From an uncultured Anaerolineaceae bacterium (GTDB lineage: Bacteria; Chloroflexota; Anaerolineae; Anaerolineales; E44-bin32), in assembly GCA_964528155.1 (NCBI GenBank), contig CAZGRL010000006.1, forward strand, positions 26,648-90,647: a stretch of DNA of 64,000 bases. The letters are read 5' to 3'. Shown in pieces: positions 5,887 to 62,646 of the stretch (its first letter is position 1; every line of letters begins with the position of its first letter). The notes beneath the pieces were generated by a model. The model worked only from the letters and a program-made list of their open reading frames with translations. It was not told the DNA's origin and searched no databases. Both the position numbers and the translations under genes were made by a program.

Positions 5887-6823
5887 CCTGGGCCTCCTTG
5901 GCGTTCTCGAGGATCTCCCGCGCTCGACCGATGTCGCGCTCAATCTGCGTGAGCAGCGCCTCCGGCCCGGGGAACCGCCTCTCGTCGCGCAGCCGGTCGA
6001 TGAACTCGAGTGTGATCTCTTTTCCGTACAAATCGCCCTCGAAATCGAGGATGTGCGTTTCGACAACCGGCGAAGGTTCGCGCCGCTCGAATGTTGGACG
6101 GACCCCGATGTTGGTGACGCCCTGGTACTTGCCGTGTCCCACGTCGACCCTGCAGGCATACACGCCGGCCCCCGGGATGGCGCGCTCTTCCCAGATCGAC
6201 AGGTTCGCCGTCGGGATCCCAAGCTTGGCCCCGCGCGCCGATCCCTTCACCACGATCCCCGGAAGGCCAAACGGTCGCCCGAGGTAGGAGGCCACACGTG
6301 AGACATCTCCCGAGCGAAGGGCTTCGCGAACGCGTGTAGAGCTCACGACTTCTCCGCCGACGTTCAAAGGTGGGACGACTTTGAGATGAAAGCCACTCTG
6401 TCGAGCTGCCCTGGCCAGGAACAACCGATTCCCTTCACGCTGATGTCCGAGCGAAAAATCCTCGCCGATCCACAAGGTCGTGAAGGTCAGGTGTCTTCGC
6501 AGGAGTTCGAGGAACTCGCCGGCCTTGACCCTCGACAGCTCCAGGTCGAACTTCTGGGTGACGACGAGATCCACGCCCAATTCTCCCAGGAGCTGCGCCT
6601 TTTCGTCGGGCGTATTGATGTAGAACGAAGGTGTTCGTCCGCGCAGGACAACGGATGGATGCGGGAAGAACGTCAACACAACGGCTGGCACGCCCTGTTC
6701 CCCGGCACTCTCAACCATATCCCGTACCAGGATCTGATGGCCCCGGTGAACACCGTCGAAGGAGCCGATGGTCACCTGACAGGCGAGCAGATTGGCTTGA
6801 GTGAGATCATGTAGGTGCTGCAT
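5870..6823 (-). CDS. ribF: Bifunctional riboflavin kinase / FAD synthetase
   Basis: 317 aa. Contains VTIGSFDGVHRGHQ, an FTFHPHP-like motif (TFFPHPS) and a C-terminal riboflavin kinase domain (GIPTANL, VTNIGVRPTF). Confidence 0.9.
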   Translation of the reverse strand: MQHLHDLTQANLLACQVTIGSFDGVHRGHQILVRDMVESAGEQGVPAVVLTFFPHPSVVLRGRTPSFYINTPDEKAQLLGELGVDLVVTQKFDLELSRVKAGEFLELLRRHLTFTTLWIGEDFSLGHQREGNRLFLARAARQSGFHLKVVPPLNVGGEVVSSTRVREALRSGDVSRVASYLGRPFGLPGIVVKGSARGAKLGIPTANLSIWEERAIPGAGVYACRVDVGHGKYQGVTNIGVRPTFERREPSPVVETHILDFEGDLYGKEITLEFIDRLRDERRFPGPEALLTQIERDIGRAREILENAKEAQDDNGG

Positions 6824-6830
6824 TCAGGGG

Positions 6831-7715
6831 CTAGCCGATGAAGACCTTTCGCGGTTGGTATTCGTTATCCCCATTGACAACCTCGAGCAAAGCCACAAGA
6901 TCGCCGTCCGGGCCGATCGCCTTGGCCAGGCCGGTTGCCCCGGGTTCGGCCGGTATTCGGTGACCGTTGCGGACGAGGTCGAGTGTTTCTCCGTCGACCT
7001 CCACTACCGGTAGATCGGGAAGGGCATCCGAGGCGGGGCGCATGTGCTGCTCCCATTTGTCGGTCACGAACCCCACTTCCAGGCGGGGAAGTGGGACGGC
7101 ATCGCGCAAAGTGAAGGGCCCAGCTTTCGTCCGGCGCAGCGCTGCCAGGTGACCTCCCGACTCGAGGGCCTCCCCGAGTTCATGTGCCAGAGAGCGGATG
7201 TAGGTCCCGGCCGAACAGTCGACCGAGAGCGAAAGATCCGGAGGCTGATAGGACACCACCTTCAGCTCGAAGATGTGTACCGTACGCGGTTCGAGCTCGA
7301 CGTCTTCCCCGCGCCTGGCCAGTTCATAGGCCTTTCGACCCTGGACCTTGATGGCGCTGAACGGCGGGGGAACTTGCTCGATCTCACCTCTGAACTGAGG
7401 CAGGATGCCCTGGACCTGTGCAAGTGTGGGCAGGGTGTCCGAACGGCGGACGATCTCGCCGTCCGCATCAAACGTCTTGGTCGAAGTGCCGAAGCGGACT
7501 ACGGCCTCATAGCGTTTCGGCGATGTCGAGAGGTACTCGCTTAGCCGGGTGGCGGAACCCAGACACAAGACGAGGACCCCCGAAGCCCGAGGGTCCAGCG
7601 TGCCGGCGTGTCCCACTTTGCGGATCCCCGTTCCGCGTCTGACGAGGTTGACCACGTGATGCGAAGTCGGTCCTACAGGTTTGTCGACGATGAGCAGTCC
7701 GAAGTTCTTTCTCAT
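6831..7715 (-). CDS. truB: tRNA pseudouridine(55) synthase TruB
   Basis: GLLIVDKPVGPTSHHVV and KVGHAGTLDPRASGVLVLCLG. Start ATG 7715 overlaps the nrnA stop (ATGA). Confidence 0.9.
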   Translation of the reverse strand: MRKNFGLLIVDKPVGPTSHHVVNLVRRGTGIRKVGHAGTLDPRASGVLVLCLGSATRLSEYLSTSPKRYEAVVRFGTSTKTFDADGEIVRRSDTLPTLAQVQGILPQFRGEIEQVPPPFSAIKVQGRKAYELARRGEDVELEPRTVHIFELKVVSYQPPDLSLSVDCSAGTYIRSLAHELGEALESGGHLAALRRTKAGPFTLRDAVPLPRLEVGFVTDKWEQHMRPASDALPDLPVVEVDGETLDLVRNGHRIPAEPGATGLAKAIGPDGDLVALLEVVNGDNEYQPRKVFIG

Positions 7716-54590: not shown

Positions 54591-55601
54591 TCAGGGATGG
54601 ACGTTTACGAGGGTTCCGACAGAGGCGAAGCCGAACAACCATTCGGCGTCGGGCGTGGCCAGGTTGACGCATCCGTGACTCATAGGGTGCCCGAAGTTGT
54701 TGTGCCAGTACGTGCCGTGAAGCGCGAATCCTTTATAGTAGTACATCGTGTACGGGACGCCGGGCAGATAGTAACCCGGGCCGGCCATTGGAGTCGCCCG
54801 CAGTTTCACGTAAATGCGAAATTGGCCGGTCACCGTCGGGTGGGCAGCCACGCCGGTCGACACGATGAACGTGCGGATCGGATCGGCACCTTCGTAGGCG
54901 ACGACCTTTTGCTCGCTCAGATCGACGTCGATCCACCGACCCTCATCCGCCAAATCGGCGGGGTTCTCCGTGTAATCCCACGAGACGTTCGGACGCGGGG
55001 TCGGCGTTTCCGTCGGCGTTGGGGTTTCGGTCGGGGTCGGCGTCAGCGTCGGGGTGAGTGTGGGCGTATTGGTCGGAGTCGGCGTCGGTGTAAATGTCGG
55101 GGTCGGCGTCGAACTGGCCTTCTCCACCTGGGCCGGCCCAGCCTGCGGCTGCTTGGCGTCTGCGGGCTGACCGCCGAACCACAAGCCGAGACCGACCACA
55201 AGTGCCAGCGCCGGGAGCATGGCCTGAGGCGAGAAAAGCCTCCGAACGGTCAGCGCTTCAAGGGGTGCGATCTGGTAGTTGAGACCTGCGGGAAGTCGTG
55301 CCTGCCGCGCCGCGGCCTGGCGATTCTGGCGAGGGATGCGCCTCATGCACCAATCGACTGCCTTGCGCGCGGGGGCGCTCTGAGGATTGATCTCCAGGGC
55401 ACGGACGGCATACGCCAGCCCGGCTTCGGCATCCTCGGCCGAGGCGGCCATGCACAGCCAGGCAGCCTCCGAATCGGGAGCCAGCGCCACCGCCCGCCGG
55501 GCGATCCGCCTCGCCCGGGCGCGATCGCCCTGGCCGAGGGCCGCCTTGCAGGCCTGGAGCATTTCACCGAGTGCCTCGAGCGAAAGTCCGTCTCGCGTCA
55601 T
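54591..55601 (-). CDS. L,D-transpeptidase (YkuD domain) with TPR-like N-terminus and a Thr/Pro repeat linker
   Basis: Catalytic [24 protein letters not shown] and the linker [38 protein letters not shown]. Confidence 0.88.
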
Positions 55602-56416
55602 GGCCCTTCCGGCTCGCCCGGCAACGTGGCCGGCTCATTGTTGATGTAGCACAGGATCCCTTCGGCGATGCCTCTCGCCGCACGGTCAGGATGTGATGTC
55701 AGGAAGTCCCGGTCCAGGTAGAGAAAACCGGTCTCGATGATCGCCGCCGGTGTCTGGTTGTGAATCTCGTAGAACGAGTGATATTCGGTCATATCCCGGG
55801 TGATGCTTCCCGGGCGAAAGGGGAGGTCCGTCGCCTGCGCGTAACGATCTGCCAGACATGCGACCAGACGCTGGGCACGGTCGGGGACGGATGTGTCGAG
55901 GGCAGCAGCGACCTTGAAGCCGGTTGCCTGGTCATTGATCGGAACACAAGCGTCGGCGTGGATTGAAACAAGCGCCACCGCCCGGTATCCGGGCAGACGC
56001 GGATCGAACTCCTCGAGCAGGTCAGCTTCGATCCCGGCCGCCTGCAGTCCGCTGACAACAAGGTCAGCAATGGCACTGTTGACCTGGAGCTCAGTCAGTC
56101 CGTCCGGACAGACCGAGCCCGGGTCGGGAAGGCCCGTTTCCCGGTTTGGCCCAGAATGACCTGCCACAATCCCCACCTTCAGGCGCTGGTCGGCTTCGGC
56201 TCCGCTGCTGACGGCCGTTGACTGCGATCCCGCTCCGGCACGATCGGCGGCCGCGGCCAACTGCTCGACCAACTCCCCCGGCCTCAGGCTGGCTGGCGTC
56301 CAGGCTGTGAAGACCGTCGCCAGAACAGCCGCAACCCCCACACAAACAGCCAATGGACGCAGCACCTGGCGTACGCCAGGTGTTGATCCAAGATCCTCTT
56401 GAGCCTTGTTGGACAT
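55598..56416 (-). CDS. N-acetylmuramoyl-L-alanine amidase (Amidase_3)
   Basis: TM anchor, [18 protein letters not shown] and ETGFL. The downstream ldt start overlaps this gene's stop (ATGA). An extended -10 (TGCTATAAT) lies on the minus strand at 56446..56454. Confidence 0.85.
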
Positions 56417-56591: not shown

Positions 56592-56619
56592 TTGACAAGC
56601 CTGCTCACTCGCATATAAT
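56592..56619 (+). promoter_or_regulatory. Near-consensus sigma70 promoter (TTGACA-16-TATAAT)
   Basis: TTGACA 56592..56597 and TATAAT 56614..56619, inside an AT-rich island unusual for this window. Confidence 0.65.
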
Positions 56620-56844: not shown

Positions 56845-57798
56845 TTGACTGAGGTCACTCTTCAGACCAGGATCATCGAAGACAAGCTCGGAGAGGCGAA
56901 TCAGCTGTTCGCCCACGTGGGTGGCACACCCTTGCTCCCGCTACGGAGGGTCGCTCCAGACCTGCCGGATGAGGTCCGGATATGGGGAAAGGCGGAGTGG
57001 TTCAACCCCGCCGGTTCGGTCAAGGATCGCCCAGCCTCCGGCATCATCCGCTCCGCCCTGCAGAACGGTCGACTGGGCGAAGGGCAAATCCTGCTCGACT
57101 CGACCTCGGGCAACATGGGGATCGCCTATGCGACTTTCGGGGCCGCACTCGGCATCCCCATCAGGCTGGCGATACCCGGCAATGCTGGCCCTGCCCGCCT
57201 GGCGATCCTGAGAGCCCTCGGAGCGGAGCTTGTCATCACCGATCCGACGGAAGGCTCGGACGGCGCCCGCGTTGTCGCCCACCGAATGGCTGACCAGGAT
57301 CCGGATCGGTTCTATTACGCCGACCAATACAGCAACCCTGCCAACTGGCAGGCACACTTCGAAAGCACAGGGCCCGAAGTCCTCGCCCAGACACGCGGAA
57401 GGCTAACGCATTTCGTCAGCGGGCTTGGCACGACAGGCACCTTGACGGGCGTCGGTCGCTACTTGCGAGAGCACGCCCCTGAGGCCCGCCTAATCGCGGT
57501 TCAGCCGGATGGACCGATGCATGGGTTGGAAGGGTTGAAGTATCTTCCGACCAGTCACATGCCTCCGATCTACGATTCGACTCTCCCGGACGAGACGGTT
57601 TCCGTCTCGACGGAGGAGGCCTACGCGATGGCCCGTCGCCTGGCGAGGGCTGAAGGATTGCTGGTCGGCCTTTCGGCGGCTGCAGCAACGGTGGCGGCCT
57701 TGCGAATCGCTGAGGCTGAACGATCGGCAACGATCGTCGTGCTGTTTCCCGACTCAGGGATCAAGTATCTCGATCTCCCATTTTGGAGCCAGGCATGA
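56845..57798 (+). CDS. cysM: PLP-dependent cysteine synthase family enzyme (CysM-like)
   Basis: NPAGSVKDRPA (PLP lysine), TSGNMGIA and GTTGTLTG. TTG start lies 4 nt after GGAGGA. Confidence 0.85.
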   Translation: MTEVTLQTRIIEDKLGEANQLFAHVGGTPLLPLRRVAPDLPDEVRIWGKAEWFNPAGSVKDRPASGIIRSALQNGRLGEGQILLDSTSGNMGIAYATFGAALGIPIRLAIPGNAGPARLAILRALGAELVITDPTEGSDGARVVAHRMADQDPDRFYYADQYSNPANWQAHFESTGPEVLAQTRGRLTHFVSGLGTTGTLTGVGRYLREHAPEARLIAVQPDGPMHGLEGLKYLPTSHMPPIYDSTLPDETVSVSTEEAYAMARRLARAEGLLVGLSAAAATVAALRIAEAERSATIVVLFPDSGIKYLDLPFWSQA

Positions 57799-58247
57799 CG
57801 ATCATTCTCAGCTCATCCCTCATTCGTCAAATCCATGAAAACGGCGAACGGCATTATCCGGAGGAGGGCGCCGGGCTCATTTTGGGAAAGGCCGACGCGC
57901 AGGCGCGCCGGGCGACCGGACTCATCCATCGCGCCAACAGTTTCGCCCCCGAGTCGCGTCGCCGACGGTATGCCATCGGTCCGCAGGAGATGCTTGAGGC
58001 GGAAGACCAGGCCGAGAGCCTTGGGGTCGACATCGTCGGGGTCTTCCACTCCCACCCAGACCACCCGGCACGTCCATCAGAATTCGACCTTGCCTGGGCC
58101 ATGCCCTGGTACTCGTACGTCATCACCAGTGTTTCTAATGGGAGAGCTGTTGAAAGCCGCTCGTGGCGGCTCTCCGATGATCGGAGCTCGTTTGTCGAAG
58201 AACAGCTTGTTCAGATTGAAATCGAAGCCTCCGAGGAGGAACGATGA
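57795..58247 (+). CDS. JAMM/MPN+ metalloprotease (Mec+-like)
   Basis: EEGAGLILG and HSHPDHPARPSEFD (H-x-H-x7-S-x2-D). ATGA overlap with cysM. Confidence 0.85.
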   Translation: MTIILSSSLIRQIHENGERHYPEEGAGLILGKADAQARRATGLIHRANSFAPESRRRRYAIGPQEMLEAEDQAESLGVDIVGVFHSHPDHPARPSEFDLAWAMPWYSYVITSVSNGRAVESRSWRLSDDRSSFVEEQLVQIEIEASEEER

Positions 58248-59011
58248 GTCTGGTACGTCTACCGACCCCGCTACGTCCCTATGCTGACGGCCGCAAGCAA
58301 GTCGAAGTGAAGGGCACGACGGTCGCCGATGCTCTCGCAGATCTGGCGAAGTCGTACCCGGAGTTGAGCCACCATCTTTACGACGATGGTGGACGCTTGC
58401 GCCCGTATGTGAATGTGTTCCTGAACGACGACGACGTACGCACCCTCCAGGGTGAATCGACCCCAATCACCGACGAAGATCGTCTTGTGATCGTCCCCAG
58501 TATTGCGGGAGGGAGAGCAGGTTCGCCGGAGAGCACAGCCCTGCGCCCGGTCGATCATACGGCCTTGCGCGTGAACCAGGCATTCATCATCAGCTTTCTC
58601 GGTGCGGCTTTCATCGCCGGATCCATCCCGCTGGTCGCGTTGGTTTGCCTGGTTATGGGCATCGGCAGTGTCGTCGGCCGTCCTGGTTTTCTCCCGCTCT
58701 ACCGCCTGCTTCGGGGTCGCGGTCTCTTCAAGCCCGATGTCGTTCAAGACAACTCCGAGCCGCACCGCTTCGCCCAAGGTATGGGCGCCGCAGTCCTGGT
58801 GGGCAGCGTGATTTGTGCGGTCGCCGGCCTGAGCATTGTCTCTTGGACGCTGGCCTGGGTGGTCATCGCCCCGGCCGCCCTCAACCTTTTCGGCGGTTTC
58901 TGCGTCGGCTGCGCCATTTACTACTGGCTCAGTCGTCTCGGGGCTCCCGGTTTCAACCGGGCGCCGCCTCCCGGGGTAACCCCCGGCCGACGGCCGTCCT
59001 CATCGGCCTAG
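58244..59011 (+). CDS. ThiS/MoaD/CysO-like beta-grasp sulfur carrier fused to a DUF4395-like membrane domain
   Basis: Residues 1-90 end in VIVPSIAGG (GG codons at 58508..58513). The ORF then continues through four hydrophobic segments to 59011. ATGA overlap with the JAMM gene. Confidence 0.7.
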   Translation: MSLVRLPTPLRPYADGRKQVEVKGTTVADALADLAKSYPELSHHLYDDGGRLRPYVNVFLNDDDVRTLQGESTPITDEDRLVIVPSIAGGRAGSPESTALRPVDHTALRVNQAFIISFLGAAFIAGSIPLVALVCLVMGIGSVVGRPGFLPLYRLLRGRGLFKPDVVQDNSEPHRFAQGMGAAVLVGSVICAVAGLSIVSWTLAWVVIAPAALNLFGGFCVGCAIYYWLSRLGAPGFNRAPPPGVTPGRRPSSSA

Positions 59012-59017
59012 GTTCCA

Positions 59018-59464
59018 ATGCTGGAACGACTTATTCTCACCCTTTTTCTCGCCGGCCTGGGCTGGCTGGCCTATCGAACGATCTCCGGCTACATCCTCCG
59101 CAGGCATGCCGGCCGCACGCTGCGCCTCGACGGCTACAATCCGGGCCAGCCAGCGATCCTGTATTTCACCGCTCCCGGCTGTGGTCCGTGTGAGACCATC
59201 CAGCGACCGGCTCTACTCGAGCTCGAAGCCCTTTCAAACGGCAGAGTCCAGGTGATCGAAGTCGACGCCATCGAGCAGCCAGAGCTGGCTGACGCCTGGG
59301 GTGTTCTGACTGTACCGACTACCTTTGTCATGGACTCCCACGGCCGGCCGCGCGGGGTGAACCACGGCGTTGCCCGGGCTGGGAAGCTCGCCCATCAATT
59401 GACCGCCGTCGGCGAACTGAAAACCCCGGGGCTGGATCCGAGTCACGTGCATGAGAGCAAGTAG
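59018..59464 (+). CDS. Membrane-anchored thioredoxin-family protein
   Basis: TM segment (LILTLFLAGLGWLAY), CGPC active site in LYFTAPGCGPCE, and VPTTFV. Confidence 0.85.
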   Translation: MLERLILTLFLAGLGWLAYRTISGYILRRHAGRTLRLDGYNPGQPAILYFTAPGCGPCETIQRPALLELEALSNGRVQVIEVDAIEQPELADAWGVLTVPTTFVMDSHGRPRGVNHGVARAGKLAHQLTAVGELKTPGLDPSHVHESK

Positions 59465-59556: not shown

Positions 59557-60735
59557 ATGGATATCCCGAAGAAGTCAAATAGCAATGGGCAATTGTCCCA
59601 CTCTGAAATCCTGCGCTACTCGCGCCACCTGCTGATGCCGGAGGTCGGCCTGGAGGGACAACAGAAGCTCAAACAGGCCTCCGTCCTTGTGATCGGAACC
59701 GGCGGGCTCGGTTCGCCGGTGGCGATGTACCTGGCGGCGGCCGGTGTCGGTCGGCTGGGTTTGGTCGATTATGACGTTGTGGACTTCACCAACCTGCAGC
59801 GGCAGATTATCCACGGGACACAGCGATTGGGTGAGAGGAAGGTCATCTCCGCCCGCGACAGATTGCTCGATATCAATCCTTCGATTCAGATCGACGTGTA
59901 CGACGAGCCTTACACATCCGAGAATGCGATGAGCATATCGGAGCCGTACGACGTGATCATCGATGGGACGGACAACTTCCCCACCCGCTATCTTGTGAAC
60001 GATGTGTGCGTCCTGAGTGGAAAGCCCGACGTCTTCGGCTCGATCTTCCGATTTGAGGGGCAGCTAAGCGTGTTTTGGGCGGAGAAAGGGCCGTGCTATC
60101 GCTGTCTATTCCCCGAGCCGCCTCCACCGGGCCTGGTGCCTTCATGCGCCGAGGGCGGCGTGTTCGGCGTGCTCCCCGGTACGATTGGCACGCTTCAGGC
60201 GACGGAAGCCCTCAAGCTGATCCTCGGGATCGGCGAACCCATGATCGGGAAGCTTCTCCTGTTCGACGCATTGGGGATGGACTTCGACGAAGTTCGCCTG
60301 AAGAAGAACCCTGACTGCAAGGTGTGCTCGGACCACCCCGAGGTGACCGAGTTGATCGACTACGAGGAGTTCTGCGGTGTGCCCGGGCACGACCGCCCGG
60401 AGTCGCTGCTGGTCAGTGAGTGGGAGATCGACGCCAGGGACCTGGCGACGCGCCTGCAGAACGGAGAGCGGATCCGGCTGATCGACGTGCGCGAGCCCCA
60501 CGAGCTGCAAATCTCGCACATCGACGGCGCCGAGTTGATCCCCCTCGGGACGCTGGCGGGCCGGATGAACGAGCTAGATAGCGCCGAAGAGATCGTTCTG
60601 TTCTGCAAGGCCGGCGGCCGCTCCGCCCAGGCGCTTCAACTTCTGGCGGGGGCCGGTTTCCGCAAGATCAAGAACTTGCACGGCGGGATCAACGCCTGGG
60701 TGCGCGAAGTGGACCAGAGCCAGCCCGTGTATTGA
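59557..60735 (+). CDS. moeZ: MoeZ/MoeB-type E1-like adenylyltransferase with C-terminal rhodanese domain
   Basis: RYSRHLLMPEVG, VIGTGGLGSP, CxxC pairs (CYRC, CKVC), and a rhodanese domain with the active-site loop FCKAGGRS. Confidence 0.88.
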   Translation: MDIPKKSNSNGQLSHSEILRYSRHLLMPEVGLEGQQKLKQASVLVIGTGGLGSPVAMYLAAAGVGRLGLVDYDVVDFTNLQRQIIHGTQRLGERKVISARDRLLDINPSIQIDVYDEPYTSENAMSISEPYDVIIDGTDNFPTRYLVNDVCVLSGKPDVFGSIFRFEGQLSVFWAEKGPCYRCLFPEPPPPGLVPSCAEGGVFGVLPGTIGTLQATEALKLILGIGEPMIGKLLLFDALGMDFDEVRLKKNPDCKVCSDHPEVTELIDYEEFCGVPGHDRPESLLVSEWEIDARDLATRLQNGERIRLIDVREPHELQISHIDGAELIPLGTLAGRMNELDSAEEIVLFCKAGGRSAQALQLLAGAGFRKIKNLHGGINAWVREVDQSQPVY

Positions 60736-60766: not shown

Positions 60767-61103
60767 ACAATTCACCTCAAGAACGGCTTTGAAGAGGGCG
60801 AGTAGCCGCCGAGACGGTCAACCAGAGAGTGGGGAGTGGTGGAAACCCCACAGGCACGCCGGCGGTGAATGGACCTCGGAGCTGCAGGGCCAAAGGCTGA
60901 TCGCCGAGTAACCCGTGCCGGAGCTGCCACCGTTATCAGGGTAAAGGGCATCGCGGATTTTCCGCCGTGCTCAATGAGAGTGAGGCTGGCTTTTTCAACC
61001 CCGTCGCATCACCGGCGGGGTTTGCGGTTAAGCCGGCCTAACCGGGGTGGCACCGCGGGCGTTCAGACGCTCGTCCCCGACCGGGGACGGGCGTTTTTTG
61101 TTT
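60767..61103 (+). promoter_or_regulatory. T-box riboswitch leader, specifier UGG (Trp)
   Basis: Stem I elements GAGTAG, AGAGAG (60824) and a GGTGGAAA distal loop. Specifier loop GTGAA-TGG-A has TGG at 60870..60872. T-box sequence AACCGGGGTGGCACCGCGGG is at 61040..61059. Terminator ACGCTCGTCCCC gacc GGGGACGGGCGT is followed by TTTTTTGTTT. Confidence 0.8.
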
Positions 61104-61272
61104 CCAGAGACCCTGCCCGTCTCCCTGACCGCTGGTCATGGACGAGGTCGAGCTTCGATCTGGCGTTCATGATCACGAGCGACGGACAGGAGGTGTGAAG
61201 GGAACGATCGATCACAGGATCAGTTCGTACGCCGACACAATGCTTGCTCAACCCAATCAAAGGAGGCCGGAA

Positions 61273-62646
61273 ATGACCGACCGAACGCGTTTCATCTTGA
61301 CCGAAGAGGAACTCCCGAAGGCCTGGTACAACATCAACCCCGACATGCCTGTTTCTCCCGGCCCGGTCTTGCACCCCGCAACCTTCGAGCCTGTGACCCC
61401 TGACTTCCTCATGGCGCTCTTCCCGGCCAAGTTCGTGATGGAAGCGGTCAGCATGGACCGTTTCATCGAAATTCCAGACCCCGTCCGGGATGTATATAAG
61501 CTCTACAGGCCGAGCCCGCTCATCCGCGCTCGACGCCTGGAGAAAGCCCTGGACACCCCGGCTCACATCTACTACAAGTACGAGGGGCTCTCACCGGTCG
61601 GCTCCCACAAGCCGAATACGGCCATCGCCCAGGCATTCTATGCGAAGGAAGAGGGGGGGACTGGTCTCACAACAGAAACCGGTGCCGGGCAGTGGGGATC
61701 CGCCCTGGCCATGGCCTGCCAGTTCTTTGGGCTGGACTGTCAGGTCTACATGGTCAAGATCTCCTACAACCAGAAACCGTATCGCCGCGTCTTGATGGAG
61801 ACCTATGGCGCGTCGGTCACGCCGAGCCCATCCGAGAAGACCGAGTTCGGCCGGAAAATCCTCTCTGAAAACCCCGAAAGCCTGGGCTCCCTGGGCATTG
61901 CCATTTCGGAGGCCGTGGAAGCCGCGGTCACATCGAACGGCAAGTACAAGTACTCCCTCGGCTCGGTCCTCGGCCCGGTGCTGATGCATCAGACGGTGGT
62001 CGGGCTAGAGACGCTCAAGCAGTTCGAGCTTGCCGATGAATACCCCGACATCTTGATCGGGTGTGTCGGCGGGGGAAGCAACTTCGCCGGCTTCTTCTTC
62101 CCCTTCCTGTACCAGAATTTCACCGCTGGGAAGAAGACCCGCATCGTGGCAGTCGAGCCGACCGCCTGCCCCAGTTTGACCAAGGGCCTGTACGCCTTCG
62201 ACTATGGGGACACCGCAGAAACGGCGCCCATCGTGAAGATGCACACGTTGGGTCACACTTTCGTCCCACCGGGGATCCATGCCGGGGGGCTGCGCTATCA
62301 CGGCATGGCACCTCACCTGTGTGCCCTCTACAGCCACGGCGACATCGAGGCTGTAGCCGTCCATCAGCTGGCAACCTTCGACGCCGCAATCAAGTTCGCC
62401 AGGGCCGAGGGTATCGTCGCCGCACCCGAATCGGCGCATGCGATCCGGGTAACGATCGACGAAGCCTTAAAGTGCAAAGCCGAAGGGGTCAGCCGGGTGA
62501 TCGGCTTCAACCTATCCGGCCACGGACACTTTGACTTGAGTGCATACGAGGCGTTCCTCAGCGGAAAACTGAAAGACTACGAGTATCCCGAAGCTGAGAT
62601 CGAGGCGGCCAAAGAACATCTTCCACGCATTCCCGAGCTCGCCTGA
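61273..62646 (+). CDS. trpB: TrpB2-type tryptophan synthase beta-like PLP enzyme
   Basis: N-terminus ILTEEELPKAWYNINPDMP, PLP lysine in GSHKPNTA, and GCVGGGSNFAG. ATG 61273 follows AAAGGAGG. Confidence 0.85.
   Translation: MTDRTRFILTEEELPKAWYNINPDMPVSPGPVLHPATFEPVTPDFLMALFPAKFVMEAVSMDRFIEIPDPVRDVYKLYRPSPLIRARRLEKALDTPAHIYYKYEGLSPVGSHKPNTAIAQAFYAKEEGGTGLTTETGAGQWGSALAMACQFFGLDCQVYMVKISYNQKPYRRVLMETYGASVTPSPSEKTEFGRKILSENPESLGSLGIAISEAVEAAVTSNGKYKYSLGSVLGPVLMHQTVVGLETLKQFELADEYPDILIGCVGGGSNFAGFFFPFLYQNFTAGKKTRIVAVEPTACPSLTKGLYAFDYGDTAETAPIVKMHTLGHTFVPPGIHAGGLRYHGMAPHLCALYSHGDIEAVAVHQLATFDAAIKFARAEGIVAAPESAHAIRVTIDEALKCKAEGVSRVIGFNLSGHGHFDLSAYEAFLSGKLKDYEYPEAEIEAAKEHLPRIPELA

What the first reader, a model, noticed from the sequence alone, without database searches (positions are those of the whole stretch)
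58244..59011. Sulfur-carrier beta-grasp domain with an internal Gly-Gly fused in-frame to a polytopic membrane domain, next to a JAMM protease
Seen in sequence: residues 1-90 (MSLVRLPTPLRPYADGRKQVEVKG...DEDRLVIVPSIAGG) look like a ThiS/MoaD/CysO carrier, which normally ends at the GG that is adenylated and thiocarboxylated. Here the GG codons (58508..58513) are not followed by a stop. The frame continues RAGSPESTALRPVDHTALRVNQAFIISFLGAAFIAGSIPLVALVCLV... through four hydrophobic segments (DUF4395-like, recalled from memory) for about 165 more residues. The gene overlaps by ATGA the stop of a JAMM/MPN+ gene (HSHPDHPARPSEFD) and is followed by a TM-anchored CGPC thioredoxin. Established knowledge: in M. 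tuberculosis, CysO/CysM/Mec+ works through a free carrier C-terminus, and in quinolobactin synthesis the JAMM enzyme QbsD trims residues after the GG of QbsE. Inference: the carrier may be made as a membrane-tethered pro-protein that the adjacent JAMM protease must release, as with ubiquitin precursors. Alternatively, the membrane domain and the thioredoxin may form a redox or sulfur-delivery module.
Basis: partly seen in the sequence, partly recalled or inferred. Interest (0 to 1): 0.72.

Follow-up and report, generated by a model that had tools for sequence, protein, structure and literature searches.

The report
Membrane-tethered sulfur-carrier precursor, thioredoxin partner
A small sulfur-carrying protein used to make cysteine is encoded here as the front end of a membrane protein, most likely to be cut free by the neighbouring protease; the membrane part always sits next to a membrane-anchored thioredoxin, which points to an undescribed redox module in bacterial sulfur metabolism.

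Summary
ORF 58244..59011 (255 aa) is a full CysO/ThiS-type beta-grasp carrier (res 1-90) ending in Gly89-Gly90. A 12-residue linker joins it in frame to a complete DUF4395 four-helix membrane domain. It lies in a tight operon: CysM, JAMM, fusion, TM-anchored CGPC thioredoxin, MoeZ. It is not an assembly error. The 120 best of 898 homologues, 51-90% identical, all have this architecture. AGG is invariant and the linker varies (4-21 aa).

Related genomes carry the same operon with the parts as separate genes, or with CysO fused to MoeZ instead. So CysO C-terminal fusions recur wherever the pathway's JAMM is present. Most likely the JAMM cuts after Gly90 and releases CysO, as shown for MoaD-MoaE and inferred for QbsE and CxnE. 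This is inferred, not shown.

The new result concerns the membrane half. In 62 of 62 loci from several phyla, DUF4395 is followed by a TM-anchored thioredoxin, and natural DUF4395-thioredoxin fusions exist. Both are predicted to face the cytoplasm. A two-domain rhodanese, Rrf2 regulators or cysteine-metabolism genes are often adjacent. DUF4395 has a conserved CxGC and no solved structural relative. I read the pair as a cytoplasm-facing membrane thiol-disulfide module serving rhodanese/persulfide chemistry. It is a new variant of a known kind, of moderate interest.

The parts
56592..56619 (+). Promoter-like site (TTGACA-16-TATAAT, 12/12) upstream of the operon
   Evidence: This is a consensus match only. 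No Rfam element was found between it and cysM.
56845..57798 (+). CysM-like PLP cysteine synthase
   Evidence: PALP, E 1e-64. TIGR01138 cysM scores 319 bits, below the equivalog cut-off of 394. PDB relatives are E. coli CysM 2bht (1e-66) and M. tuberculosis CysM 3dwg_A (2.5e-49).
57795..58247 (+). JAMM/MPN+ metallopeptidase (Mec-like). The likely start is ATG 57795, which overlaps the cysM stop (ATGA). The mechanical ORF starts at TTG 57783.
   Evidence: Prok-JAB, E 2e-23. The motif E..HSH-x7-S-x2-D is intact. The closest solved relative is 2kcq_A, an MPN family protein (4e-29), and PfJAMM1 5ld9 is more distant.
58244..59011 (+). CysO~DUF4395 fusion ORF (255 aa)
58244..58513 (+). CysO/ThiS-type beta-grasp carrier domain, res 1-90, ending PSIAGG
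   Evidence: Pfam ThiS covers the full profile. Foldseek top hits are M. tuberculosis CysO 3dwg_C (39% identity, TM 0.86) and CysO 4n6e_B. pLDDT is above 90.
58508..58513 (+). Gly89-Gly90 codons, the predicted JAMM cleavage and adenylation site
   Evidence: Invariant in 115 sequences. pLDDT is below 50 for res 89-94.
58514..58549 (+). Linker, res 91-102 (RAGSPESTALRP)
   Evidence: In 113 homologues the linker is 4-21 aa (median 8), rich in A/P/R/S, with any residue after GG.
58550..58936 (+). DUF4395 membrane domain, res 103-231: a small beta-hairpin plus helices 105-125, 128-144, 150-158, 172-193, 197-217 and 221-231
   Evidence: Pfam covers the full profile. AF2 pLDDT is 93-99. Family-wide conserved residues are D104, Y153, P173-H174-x-F176, W201 and C220-x-G222-C223. 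All K/R lie on the side of the N-terminus, the loop between helices 2 and 3, and the C-tail (sequence).
58901..58912 (+). CVGC (Cys220..Cys223) at the N-cap of the last helix, cytoplasmic end of helix 4
   Evidence: Invariant in the fusions. About 81-82% conserved over 97 family representatives that include fragments, and at least 90% in 40 divergent full-length members.
59018..59464 (+). Thioredoxin with a single N-terminal TM anchor. CGPC is at 59180..59191. The domain is predicted to face the cytoplasm.
   Evidence: PF00085, E 2e-9. In about 50 loci the protein starts M-x-E/D-R plus a TM, followed by mostly 3-7 K/R (2 in three loci) in the next 15 residues. Natural DUF4395-Trx fusions have no TM between the domains.
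59557..60735 (+). MoeZ-type E1-like adenylyltransferase with a C-terminal rhodanese domain
   Evidence: ThiF, E 3e-83, plus Rhodanese, E 3e-17. NF006444 MoeB scores 465 bits, above its cut-off of 449. NF005902 MoeZ scores 495 bits, below its cut-off of 647.

Best explanation
The gene encodes a pro-form of the cysteine-pathway sulfur carrier CysO, fused at its Gly-Gly end to a DUF4395 membrane domain. The proposed mechanism has four steps.

Step 1 (shown). The operon encodes CysM, a Mec-type JAMM peptidase, CysO~DUF4395, a TM-anchored thioredoxin and MoeZ. The genes are tightly packed or overlap.

Step 2 (inferred). In the M. tuberculosis pathway the JAMM enzyme hydrolyses the CysO-Gly-Gly-cysteine amide once per turnover. 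Here it would also cut the Gly90-Arg91 peptide bond, releasing a soluble 90-residue CysO with a free GG carboxylate. Only then can MoeZ adenylate CysO and its rhodanese domain thiocarboxylate it, so that CysM can make cysteine. Because the pathway already contains a GG-X amidase, C-terminal fusions of CysO cost nothing. This explains why they recur, whether to DUF4395, to MoeZ or as short tails.

Step 3 (shown by association, chemistry inferred). DUF4395 stays in the membrane and works with the thioredoxin encoded next to it. The conserved CxGC of DUF4395 and the CxxC of the thioredoxin are both predicted to sit at the cytoplasmic face of the membrane, where they could form a thiol-disulfide relay. 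Recurrent linkage to rhodanese proteins (MoeZ, a two-domain sulfurtransferase) suggests the relay serves persulfide chemistry. It could reductively resolve the rhodanese persulfide or the CysO acyl-disulfide. Alternatively, it could generate sulfane sulfur from an inorganic source. The direction of electron flow is unresolved.

Step 4 (inferred). The fusion gives 1:1 co-production and releases CysO next to this module.
For: Architecture and its reality:
- Both Pfam profiles are covered end to end.
- The 120 best of 898 homologues share the architecture down to 51% identity.
- AGG is invariant.

The carrier is a CysO orthologue:
- Foldseek top hits are M. tuberculosis CysO and BexX-bound CysO at 36-39% identity.
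- It is the only ThiS-like ORF in the 64-kb window.

The linker behaves like a cleavable spacer:
- Its length is 4-21 aa, with any residue after GG.
- The only stretch with pLDDT below 50 is res 89-94.

The same operon occurs with other arrangements:
- CysM-JAMM-DUF4395-Trx-CysO(free)-MoeZ in L004, L012 and L013.
- CysM-JAMM-[CysO~MoeZ]-DUF4395-Trx-rhodanese in L090.
- CysM-JAMM-[CysO~MoeZ] in eight Thermoanaerobaculia/Acidobacteriota loci.
- Free CysO with short or long tails after GG: AGGSS, AGGLFW, AGGCRCEPSG....

The JAMM:
- It is present and has an intact motif in every fusion locus with upstream sequence: L001-3, L081-83.

Precedent:
- DR0402 cleaves the natural MoaD-MoaE fusion at GG, and HvJAMM1 cleaves linear SAMP1 fusions (PMC8832034).
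- JAMM trimming of the QbsE-CF and CxnE tails is proposed (PMC5925218).

The DUF4395-Trx module:
- A thioredoxin lies downstream on the same strand in 62 of 62 loci with enough sequence.
- These include a gammaproteobacterium (Sulfuriflexus), a spirochaete MAG and further contigs with no taxon given.
- DUF4395-Trx single-chain fusions exist: P0136, P0176.

Topology:
- The cytosolic beta-grasp at the N-terminus forces the N-terminus inside.
- All K/R of DUF4395 lie on that side (with the helices).
- The Trx anchors are followed by mostly 3-7 K/R.
- The natural fusions lack an intervening TM.

Sulfur context:
- A two-domain rhodanese lies within 4 kb in 10 loci. An Rrf2/CymR-like regulator lies nearby in 5. 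Cysteine synthase, cysteine desulfurase-like or CysS genes appear in others.
Against: - No experiment or proteomic datum shows cleavage.
- I could not check whole genomes for a second free CysO.
- Some linkers are only 4 residues long, which might hinder protease access. Against that, linear polyubiquitin has no linker at all.
- The JAMM is also present where CysO ends exactly at GG (L013), so its presence does not by itself argue for precursor processing.
- DUF4395 has no detectable relationship to any known oxidoreductase.
- D104, H174, C220 and C223 could instead bind a metal.
- No redox partner (quinone or reductase) is identified.
- Most stand-alone DUF4395-Trx pairs have no obvious sulfur gene beside them.
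Confidence: 0.5

Rival explanations
1. The fusion is not cleaved. The beta-grasp domain is a permanent cytoplasmic docking module that recruits MoeZ, CysM or the JAMM to the membrane-bound DUF4395/thioredoxin pair. A separate free carrier elsewhere in the genome does the sulfur chemistry.
For: No direct evidence of cleavage exists. L012 and L013 carry a second ThiS-like gene a few kb upstream of the operon, so extra carriers occur in this clade. Beta-grasp domains fused to membrane proteins without processing are known, for example YukD/EccD (PMC1779556).
Against: A88-G89-G90 and the preceding PSI are invariant over 115 sequences. A docking role would not demand this. The domain is the closest relative of the free operon CysO of L004 and L013 (51-52% identity) and of M. 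tuberculosis CysO. Neither the fusion operons nor the 64-kb window hold another carrier.
Confidence: 0.15
2. CysO is released as in the best explanation. However, DUF4395 is a small channel or transporter for an inorganic sulfur species (thiosulfate or sulfide in, sulfite out), not a redox protein. The thioredoxin and rhodanese process that substrate at its cytoplasmic mouth.
For: It is a four-helix, roughly 130-residue membrane domain, comparable in size to small oligomeric transporters. A two-domain thiosulfate/3-mercaptopyruvate-type sulfurtransferase is adjacent in 10 loci. De novo cysteine synthesis needs an inorganic sulfur source (established knowledge). Conserved cysteines line the pathway of the thiosulfate importer YeeE (my recollection, not checked here).
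Against: The two outward turns are 1-3 uncharged residues long. Every conserved polar residue sits at the cytoplasmic face. The strict pairing is with a thioredoxin, including single-chain fusions. That is the signature of thiol-disulfide partners, not of transporters. No similarity to any transporter family was found.
Confidence: 0.2
3. D104, H174, C220 and C223 of DUF4395 bind a metal or an Fe-S cluster. The domain would then be a membrane-bound sensor or structural anchor, not a dithiol-disulfide relay.
For: These four residues are the best-conserved polar positions family-wide. The secondary-structure model places all of them near the cytoplasmic ends of the helices. Rrf2-type regulators are sometimes adjacent.
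Against: His105 is replaced by Arg in most Chloroflexales members (VDRTALR). Within CxGC the two Cys are spaced as in redox CxxC motifs, and the motif caps a helix. I had no model coordinates to test whether the four residues converge.
Confidence: 0.1
4. The long ORF is an artefact: a frameshift or lost stop codon in this assembly merged two genes.
For: One related locus, L009, a long-read MAG, has CysO ending AGGSS* and DUF4395 in another frame, starting at a GTG that overlaps the stop. So split versions, or 1-nt errors, do exist.
Against: The identical architecture occurs in the 120 best homologues, drawn from JGI, ENA, NCBI and Logan assemblies, and in L001-3 and L081-84.
Confidence: 0.01

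Closest known systems
M. tuberculosis CysO / CysM / Mec+ / MoeZR protein-thiocarboxylate cysteine pathway. This is operon type 4c (ThiS/MoaD + E1-rhodanese + JAB + cysteine synthase) of Iyer, Burroughs and Aravind 2006 (PMC1779556). MoeZR is described in PMC3227635.
   Same: The same four proteins sit in one operon. The carrier domain is 36-39% identical to the solved CysO proteins and superposes on them. The JAMM motif is intact, and the E1 carries a rhodanese domain.
   Different: The carrier is not a free protein ending at GG. It continues into a polytopic membrane domain. The operon also holds a membrane-anchored thioredoxin. CysM and MoeZ score below the NCBIfam equivalog cut-offs. O-phosphoserine use was not tested.
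JAMM-processed sulfur-carrier precursors: the MoaD-MoaE fusion DR2607 cut by DR0402, linear SAMP1-MoaE fusions cut by HvJAMM1 (PMC8832034), the QbsE-CF tail with QbsD, and the CxnE decapeptide tail with CxnF (PMC5925218). From my own knowledge: MoaX of M. tuberculosis and HcyS-Ala/HcyD of Wolinella.
   Same: There is an internal GG followed by extra residues, with a JAMM peptidase encoded alongside. The GG must be exposed before the E1 can act.
   Different: The C-terminal partner here is an integral membrane domain of unknown function, not a soluble pathway enzyme or a short tail. The precursor would therefore be membrane-tethered. Cleavage is not demonstrated.
Membrane thiol-disulfide modules with a thioredoxin-fold partner: DsbB-DsbA, VKOR-Trx fusions, CcdA/DsbD-ResA/TlpA, MauE-MauD (from my own knowledge).
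   Same: A small helical membrane protein with a conserved Cys pair is strictly paired with, and sometimes fused to, a thioredoxin-fold protein.
   Different: No sequence or fold similarity was detected. There is only one Cys pair. Both partners are predicted to face the cytoplasm, not the periplasm. No quinone or second redox partner is known.
E. coli YgaP, a membrane-anchored rhodanese with a two-helix TM domain (PMC4730233).
   Same: It is a cytoplasmic sulfur-transfer domain tethered to a small helical membrane domain that carries a G-F-C motif just after the last helix. Seven of 40 DUF4395 proteins give sub-threshold Pfam hits to YgaP-like_TM.
   Different: The hits are not significant (E at least 0.12). 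hhalign against the YgaP TM domain gives 0.35% probability. YgaP has two helices and a single Cys, and no thioredoxin partner is known to me.
Eukaryotic ubiquitin precursors (polyubiquitin, ubiquitin-ribosomal protein fusions).
   Same: A beta-grasp modifier is translated with its GG blocked by a C-terminal fusion and is freed by a dedicated peptidase.
   Different: This is a bacterial sulfur carrier, with a membrane partner, and nothing here indicates protein conjugation.

Membership tests
ThiS/MoaD/CysO sulfur-carrier beta-grasp (PF02597) | Sequence match to the family profile over its whole length | tested here: met
   PF02597, E 5e-13, res 4-90, profile 1-76/76. NF041918 SAMP1 scores 62.6 bits, above its cut-off of 60.
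ThiS/MoaD/CysO sulfur-carrier beta-grasp (PF02597) | Beta-grasp fold superposable on solved carriers | tested here: met
   The AF2 model has pLDDT above 90 for res 1-88. Foldseek hits 3dwg_C CysO (E 7e-8, TM 0.86) and 4n6e_B, 3dwm_A and SAMP1.
ThiS/MoaD/CysO sulfur-carrier beta-grasp (PF02597) | Gly-Gly at the end of the domain | tested here: met
   G89-G90 are invariant in 115 sequences.
ThiS/MoaD/CysO sulfur-carrier beta-grasp (PF02597) | The GG is the free C-terminus of the translated protein | tested here: not met
   The frame continues for 165 residues. A free GG would need proteolysis.
ThiS/MoaD/CysO sulfur-carrier beta-grasp (PF02597) | Adenylation and thiocarboxylation by an E1-like enzyme | not testable with these tools
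   A MoeZ-type E1 with a rhodanese domain is encoded two genes downstream. The chemistry was not assayed.
DUF4395 (PF14340) | Full-length profile match and the family's conserved residues | tested here: met
   E 3e-24, profile 1-130/130. D104, Y153, PH-x-F 173-176, W201 and C-x-G-C 220-223 are shared with 97 representatives.
JAMM-processed carrier precursors (QbsE/QbsD, CxnE/CxnF, MoaD-MoaE/DR0402) | Extra residues after the GG of the carrier | tested here: met
JAMM-processed carrier precursors (QbsE/QbsD, CxnE/CxnF, MoaD-MoaE/DR0402) | A JAMM/MPN+ peptidase with an intact metal and catalytic motif in the same operon | tested here: met
   Prok-JAB, E 2e-23. The motif HSH-x7-S-x2-D is present. 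The genes overlap by ATGA. This is conserved in all fusion loci with upstream sequence.
JAMM-processed carrier precursors (QbsE/QbsD, CxnE/CxnF, MoaD-MoaE/DR0402) | Cleavage after GG actually occurs and is needed for activity | not testable with these tools
   Only indirect evidence is available: invariant GG, a variable low-confidence linker, and unfused orthologous operons.
M. tuberculosis-type CysO-dependent cysteine synthesis | CysM-type PLP enzyme, Mec-type JAMM and MoeZ-type E1-rhodanese together with the carrier | tested here: met
   All four are in one operon. This matches operon type 4c of PMC1779556.
M. tuberculosis-type CysO-dependent cysteine synthesis | CysM uses O-phosphoserine and CysO-thiocarboxylate | not tested
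   The CysM-like protein is about as close to E. coli CysM (1e-66) as to M. tuberculosis CysM (2.5e-49), and lies below the TIGR01138 cut-off.
DsbB / VKOR / CcdA-type membrane thiol-disulfide oxidoreductases | Homology in sequence or fold to one of these families | tested here: not met
   No Pfam hit even at E up to 10 for 40 members. No PDB sequence hit beyond chance. No Foldseek hit for the membrane domain with probability above 0.3.
DsbB / VKOR / CcdA-type membrane thiol-disulfide oxidoreductases | Conserved membrane Cys pair plus a dedicated thioredoxin-fold partner | tested here: met
   CxGC is conserved. A thioredoxin lies downstream in 62 of 62 loci, and natural fusions exist.
DsbB / VKOR / CcdA-type membrane thiol-disulfide oxidoreductases | Active sites face the periplasm | tested here: not met
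   The charge distribution, the N-terminal cytosolic CysO, and TM-less DUF4395-Trx fusions all predict a cytoplasmic face. This is prediction only.
YgaP-like TM domain (PF11127) | Significant profile match | tested here: not met
   There are sub-threshold hits in 7 of 40 members, with a best E of 0.12. hhalign against the E. coli YgaP TM domain gives 0.35% probability.

The most novel reading that the evidence does not exclude
DUF4395 plus its anchored thioredoxin would be a previously unrecognised, cytoplasm-facing membrane thiol-disulfide oxidoreductase system, a kind of inverted DsbB/VKOR. It would couple a membrane redox pool to the making or resolving of persulfides on rhodanese domains, so feeding inorganic sulfur into protein-thiocarboxylate-dependent cysteine synthesis. 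In Anaerolineae, CysO would be made as a membrane-tethered zymogen, and its release by the JAMM would be a control point for the pathway.
Probability: 0.15. Interest if true: 0.8.

Novelty: new variant of a known kind. Interest (0 to 1): 0.55.

Why it matters
If the reading holds, it matters in three ways.

First, it extends the principle that a JAMM peptidase unmasks a sulfur carrier. That principle is known for soluble fusions and short tails. Here the precursor would be anchored in the membrane. It also explains why CysO tolerates many different C-terminal fusions: the pathway's own GG-X amidase regenerates the free end in every catalytic cycle.

Second, it gives the first functional handle on DUF4395. 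I found no functional literature on this family. The family turns out to be an obligate partner of a membrane-anchored, apparently cytoplasm-facing thioredoxin, and it is repeatedly linked to rhodanese and cysteine-metabolism genes.

Third, it bears on an open question in thiocarboxylate-dependent cysteine synthesis: where the sulfane sulfur and the reducing equivalents for the MoeZ rhodanese step come from, given that cysteine itself cannot be the source. The fusion, the split operons and the stand-alone pairs give several natural constructs for testing this.

Tried and rejected
- Sequencing artefact: rejected, because the architecture is conserved.
- Plasmid collection searched with the DUF4395 domain (tblastn): no match.
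I used the search for homologous proteins plus look-up of encoding contigs instead.
- Fold relatives of DUF4395 in the PDB: none. Only non-specific helical-bundle hits at probability below 0.3 (TRPV2, pentameric channels, ZnT1).
- PDB sequence search with a family profile: only stannin (E 0.018, a chance TM-plus-GCxC resemblance) and CALHM6 (E 1.6).
- Relationship to the YgaP-like TM domain: sub-threshold Pfam hits, not supported by hhalign. Kept only as a weak lead.
- A riboswitch or leader in the roughly 220-nt 5' region of the operon: none found at E up to 0.1.
- A second ThiS-like gene in the window: none.
- An internal start codon that could express DUF4395 separately: the only in-frame start-type codon between GG and the first helix is GTG, encoding Val110 within the conserved ALRVNQ stretch, so this is unlikely.
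- Neighbours of the stand-alone pairs other than rhodanese, Rrf2 and cysteine genes: they differ by clade (ABC transporter, glycosidase, GNAT, cyclopropane-fatty-acid synthase, ProRS, MutS-like) and were judged unrelated.
- The second structure job and a DUF4395-Trx model: not run. Model coordinates are not returned, so Cys-Cys distances could not have been measured.
Full report
OBSERVATION

The ORF at 58244..59011 (+) exists as described. Gly89-Gly90 are encoded at 58508..58513 and are followed by AGA (Arg), not a stop. Pfam finds two complete domains. ThiS (PF02597) covers res 4-90 and the full profile 1-76 (E 5e-13). DUF4395 (PF14340) covers res 103-231 and the full profile 1-130 (E 3e-24). 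NCBIfam places the N-terminal part in SAMP1/MoaD-type carriers.

The surrounding genes, with evidence, are:
- a CysM-like PLP enzyme, 56845..57798;
- a JAMM/MPN+ peptidase with an intact HSH-x7-S-x2-D motif, most likely 57795..58247;
- the fusion;
- a thioredoxin with an N-terminal hydrophobic anchor and CGPC, 59018..59464;
- a MoeZ-type E1 with a C-terminal rhodanese domain, 59557..60735.

ATGA overlaps join cysM to the JAMM gene and the JAMM gene to the fusion, and only 6 nt separate the fusion from the thioredoxin gene. A perfect sigma-70-like promoter match lies at 56592..56619. The next gene, a TrpB2-like gene, has its own Trp T-box leader. I therefore take the operon to end at moeZ.

IS THE FUSION REAL?

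Yes. A search of 5.8 billion proteins gave 898 relatives. The best 120 are 51-90% identical and 237-263 aa long, come from JGI, ENA, NCBI and Logan assemblies, and all carry both Pfam domains. Named members are Anaerolineales or Chloroflexota MAGs.

In a 115-sequence alignment, P85, S86, A88, G89 and G90 are invariant. The segment between GG and the first conserved DUF4395 residues is 4-21 aa long (median 8), is rich in A/P/R/S, and has no preferred residue after GG. AlphaFold2 with this alignment gives mean pLDDT 92. The only stretch below 50 is res 89-94. The pTM of 0.65 is what I would expect if the two well-folded domains have no fixed mutual orientation.

Foldseek against the PDB puts the N-terminal domain closest to M. 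tuberculosis CysO (3dwg_C, 39% identity, TM 0.86) and to CysO bound to BexX (4n6e_B), followed by SAMP1 and Urm1. The window contains no other ThiS-like ORF.

COMPARATIVE ANATOMY OF THE OPERON

I fetched loci from species-representative genomes and mapped them with the window's proteins. Four arrangements appear.

(i) CysM-JAMM-[CysO~DUF4395]-Trx-MoeZ, as in the window. This occurs in L001-L003 and in metagenomic loci L081-L082. L083 has a 77-aa ORF and a two-domain rhodanese inserted before the thioredoxin gene, and L084 carries the same downstream genes but lacks upstream sequence.

(ii) CysM-JAMM-DUF4395-Trx-CysO-MoeZ, with all genes separate. This occurs in L004, L012 and L013. There the free CysO is 47-52% identical to the window's carrier domain and ends AGGSS*, AGG plus 17 residues, or AGG*.

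(iii) CysM-JAMM-[CysO~MoeZ]. This is a 486-518-aa ThiS-ThiF-rhodanese protein with an A/P-rich linker after AGG. It occurs in eight Thermoanaerobaculia/Acidobacteriota loci and in L090, where DUF4395-Trx-rhodanese follow directly.

(iv) The classical CysM-JAMM-CysO-MoeZ or JAMM-CysO-CysM without DUF4395.

L009 has CysO ending AGGSS*, and DUF4395 starts at a GTG overlapping that stop in another frame. This is either a genuine adjacent-gene intermediate or a 1-nt homopolymer error in a long-read MAG.

Two conclusions follow. First, the carrier and DUF4395 are separate genes in relatives, so the fusion links two functionally associated proteins. Second, blocking the CysO C-terminus with something else has happened repeatedly in operons that contain the JAMM.

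HOW THE CARRIER HALF MOST LIKELY WORKS

In the M. tuberculosis pathway the JAMM enzyme Mec+ hydrolyses the amide between CysO-Gly-Gly and the newly made cysteine in every turnover. An E1 can only adenylate a free GG carboxylate. Both points are established knowledge (Burns et al. 2005, from memory; MoeZR is described in PMC3227635). The Gly90-Arg91 bond of the fusion is the same kind of bond.

Published work shows that JAMM enzymes cut natural or engineered linear carrier fusions at GG. DR0402 cuts the MoaD-MoaE fusion DR2607, and HvJAMM1 cuts SAMP1 fusions (PMC8832034). JAMM trimming of the QbsE and CxnE tails is proposed (PMC5925218).

Taken with the invariant GG, the variable linker and the absence of another carrier in the operon, the best reading is that the adjacent JAMM releases a 90-residue CysO from the membrane-bound precursor. 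MoeZ and CysM would then use it. I put about 0.65 on cleavage. It is inferred, not shown.

The main rival is an uncleaved docking domain. That rival does not explain why GG stays invariant.

THE MEMBRANE HALF

DUF4395 is a small family. A phmmer scan of 1.84 billion representatives with the window's domain found 335 clusters, most of them 140-170 aa and stand-alone.

The model shows:
- a short beta-hairpin (res 101-104 and 166-169);
- four long helices (105-125, 128-144, 172-193, 197-217);
- an amphipathic helix (150-158);
- a final helix (221-231) capped by C220-V-G-C223.

The two outward turns are 1-3 uncharged residues long. All Lys and Arg lie before helix 1, between helices 2 and 3, and in the C-tail. 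With a cytosolic carrier at the N-terminus, this fixes an N-in/C-in topology, with every conserved polar residue at the cytoplasmic face. Family-wide conserved positions are D104, Y153, P173-H174-x-F176, W201 and C220-x-G222-C223.

No solved structure resembles the domain. No other Pfam family matches it significantly. Weak hits to the YgaP-like TM domain were not confirmed by hhalign.

The literature holds nothing functional. DUF4395 or PF14340 appears in four papers. The two naming DUF4395 only list it in tables, and I did not open the two naming PF14340.

THE THIOREDOXIN PARTNER

Of 63 loci that carry DUF4395, 62 have at least 600 nt of downstream sequence. In all 62, a thioredoxin gene follows on the same strand. 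These include Chloroflexus, Roseiflexus, Kouleothrix, Thermoflexus-like and Anaerolineae genomes, an Armatimonadota MAG, the gammaproteobacterium Sulfuriflexus mobilis (two DUF4395 genes plus a thioredoxin), a spirochaete MAG and contigs with no taxon given. Single-chain DUF4395-thioredoxin proteins exist: P0136 and P0176.

The separate thioredoxins all begin M-x-E/D-R, followed by a hydrophobic segment and then mostly 3-7 Lys/Arg (2 in three loci) within 15 residues. By the positive-inside rule, this places the thioredoxin domain in the cytoplasm. The single-chain fusions have no hydrophobic segment between the DUF4395 C-terminus and the thioredoxin domain. This independently puts the two Cys motifs on the same side.

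Recurrent additional neighbours are:
- a two-domain rhodanese of the thiosulfate/3-mercaptopyruvate sulfurtransferase type, within 4 kb in 10 loci;
- an Rrf2/CymR-like regulator, in 5 loci;
- the CysO operon, marked by a JAMM within 4 kb, in 11 loci;
- in single cases, cysteine synthase, class-V aminotransferase (cysteine-desulfurase-like) and CysS.

Most other neighbours differ by clade and look unrelated.

MECHANISM PROPOSED FOR THE MODULE

The strict pairing, the fusions, the shared predicted face and the CxGC/CxxC motifs point to a cytoplasm-facing membrane thiol-disulfide relay. The common denominator of its sulfur-related neighbours is a rhodanese domain (MoeZ, or the two-domain sulfurtransferase). 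I therefore propose that the relay acts on rhodanese persulfide chemistry.

There are two possible directions. In one, the thioredoxin reduces the rhodanese persulfide or the CysO acyl-disulfide to give the thiocarboxylate. In the other, the pair generates sulfane sulfur from sulfide or thiosulfate. De novo cysteine synthesis cannot take its sulfur from cysteine. I cannot decide the direction of electron flow, or whether a quinone or a metal is involved.

Two alternatives are not excluded: a small sulfur-anion channel, or a metal-binding anchor or sensor. I put about 0.5 on the relay.

WHAT THE FUSION WOULD ADD

The fusion would give equimolar synthesis of CysO and DUF4395. It would also release CysO at the membrane next to the thioredoxin. 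This is inference only.

NOVELTY AND VERDICT

The operon type was catalogued in 2006 (PMC1779556, type 4c), and JAMM processing of carrier precursors is known. Three things are new:
- a polytopic membrane domain as the C-terminal partner of CysO, conserved in hundreds of Anaerolineae sequences;
- the recurrence of different C-terminal fusions in this operon family;
- the obligate DUF4395-thioredoxin pair with a predicted cytoplasmic orientation.

Databases already label these proteins "DUF4395 family protein" or "molybdopterin converting factor small subunit". No paper in the searched library discusses them.

I classify this as a new variant of a known kind, with interest 0.55. The most novel reading that the evidence does not exclude is an inverted DsbB/VKOR-like system that feeds persulfide sulfur to thiocarboxylate-dependent cysteine synthesis, with JAMM-gated release of a tethered CysO. 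I give it about 0.15 probability.

Noticed in passing
window 60780-61081 (+), with gene 61138-62646 (+): A T-box leader (RF00230, 89.1 bits, just under the gathering score of 93; E 4e-20) has the specifier UGG (Trp) in the GAA-UGG-A context and a terminator-like hairpin at 61065-61096. It lies upstream of a TrpB2-like PLP enzyme (NF009057, 697 bits). This gene is therefore regulated separately from the CysO operon, probably by uncharged tRNA-Trp.
   Followed up: partly
L031, L037, L038, L043, L044, L048, L052, L053 (about 6001-7550 in most); L090 2474-3934: CysO is fused in frame to MoeZ (ThiS-ThiF-rhodanese, 486-518 aa, with an A/P-rich linker after AGG). It sits next to JAMM and CysM in Thermoanaerobaculia/Acidobacteriota MAGs. 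This is a second, independent way of blocking the CysO C-terminus in JAMM-containing operons.
   Followed up: partly
L009 6001-6767: CysO ends AGGSS*. DUF4395 starts at a GTG that overlaps the stop (GTGA), in another frame. This is either a genuine split-gene intermediate on the way to the fusion or a 1-nt error at a G5 run in a long-read MAG. The free CysO of L004 has the same SS tail.
   Followed up: partly
L085 4178-5963 (Sulfuriflexus mobilis AP018725): Two tandem DUF4395 genes are followed by one thioredoxin, in a sulfur-oxidising gammaproteobacterium. The pair is therefore not confined to Chloroflexota.
   Followed up: no
L086 966-5960: In a spirochaete MAG, the DUF4395-Trx pair is transcribed divergently from Rrf2, PALP (cysteine synthase-like), LuxS, a class-V aminotransferase and ThiF.
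   Followed up: no
L083 8757-8990 and L084 802-1035: A 77-aa ORF with no Pfam or NCBIfam hit lies between the CysO~DUF4395 fusion and a two-domain rhodanese. It may be another small component of the sulfur relay.
   Followed up: partly
window 57795-57798 and 58244-58247: ATGA start/stop overlaps occur at both the CysM/JAMM and the JAMM/fusion junctions, which suggests translational coupling of three genes. The mechanical ORF call for the JAMM (TTG 57783) probably starts 12 nt too early.
   Followed up: partly
window 54591-55601 (-) and 55598-56416 (-): Upstream on the opposite strand is an ORF with a long (T-P)n low-complexity linker, which looked like an L,D-transpeptidase on reading. It is followed by an ORF that looked like a cell-wall amidase. 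Neither was analysed with any tool.
   Followed up: no
DUF4395 family (A2 members P0152, P0172 and others): Seven of 40 DUF4395 proteins give sub-threshold Pfam hits to the YgaP-like TM domain of the E. coli membrane rhodanese. The hits fall on either helical hairpin, which hints that DUF4395 might be a duplicated YgaP-like hairpin. hhalign did not support this.
   Followed up: yes
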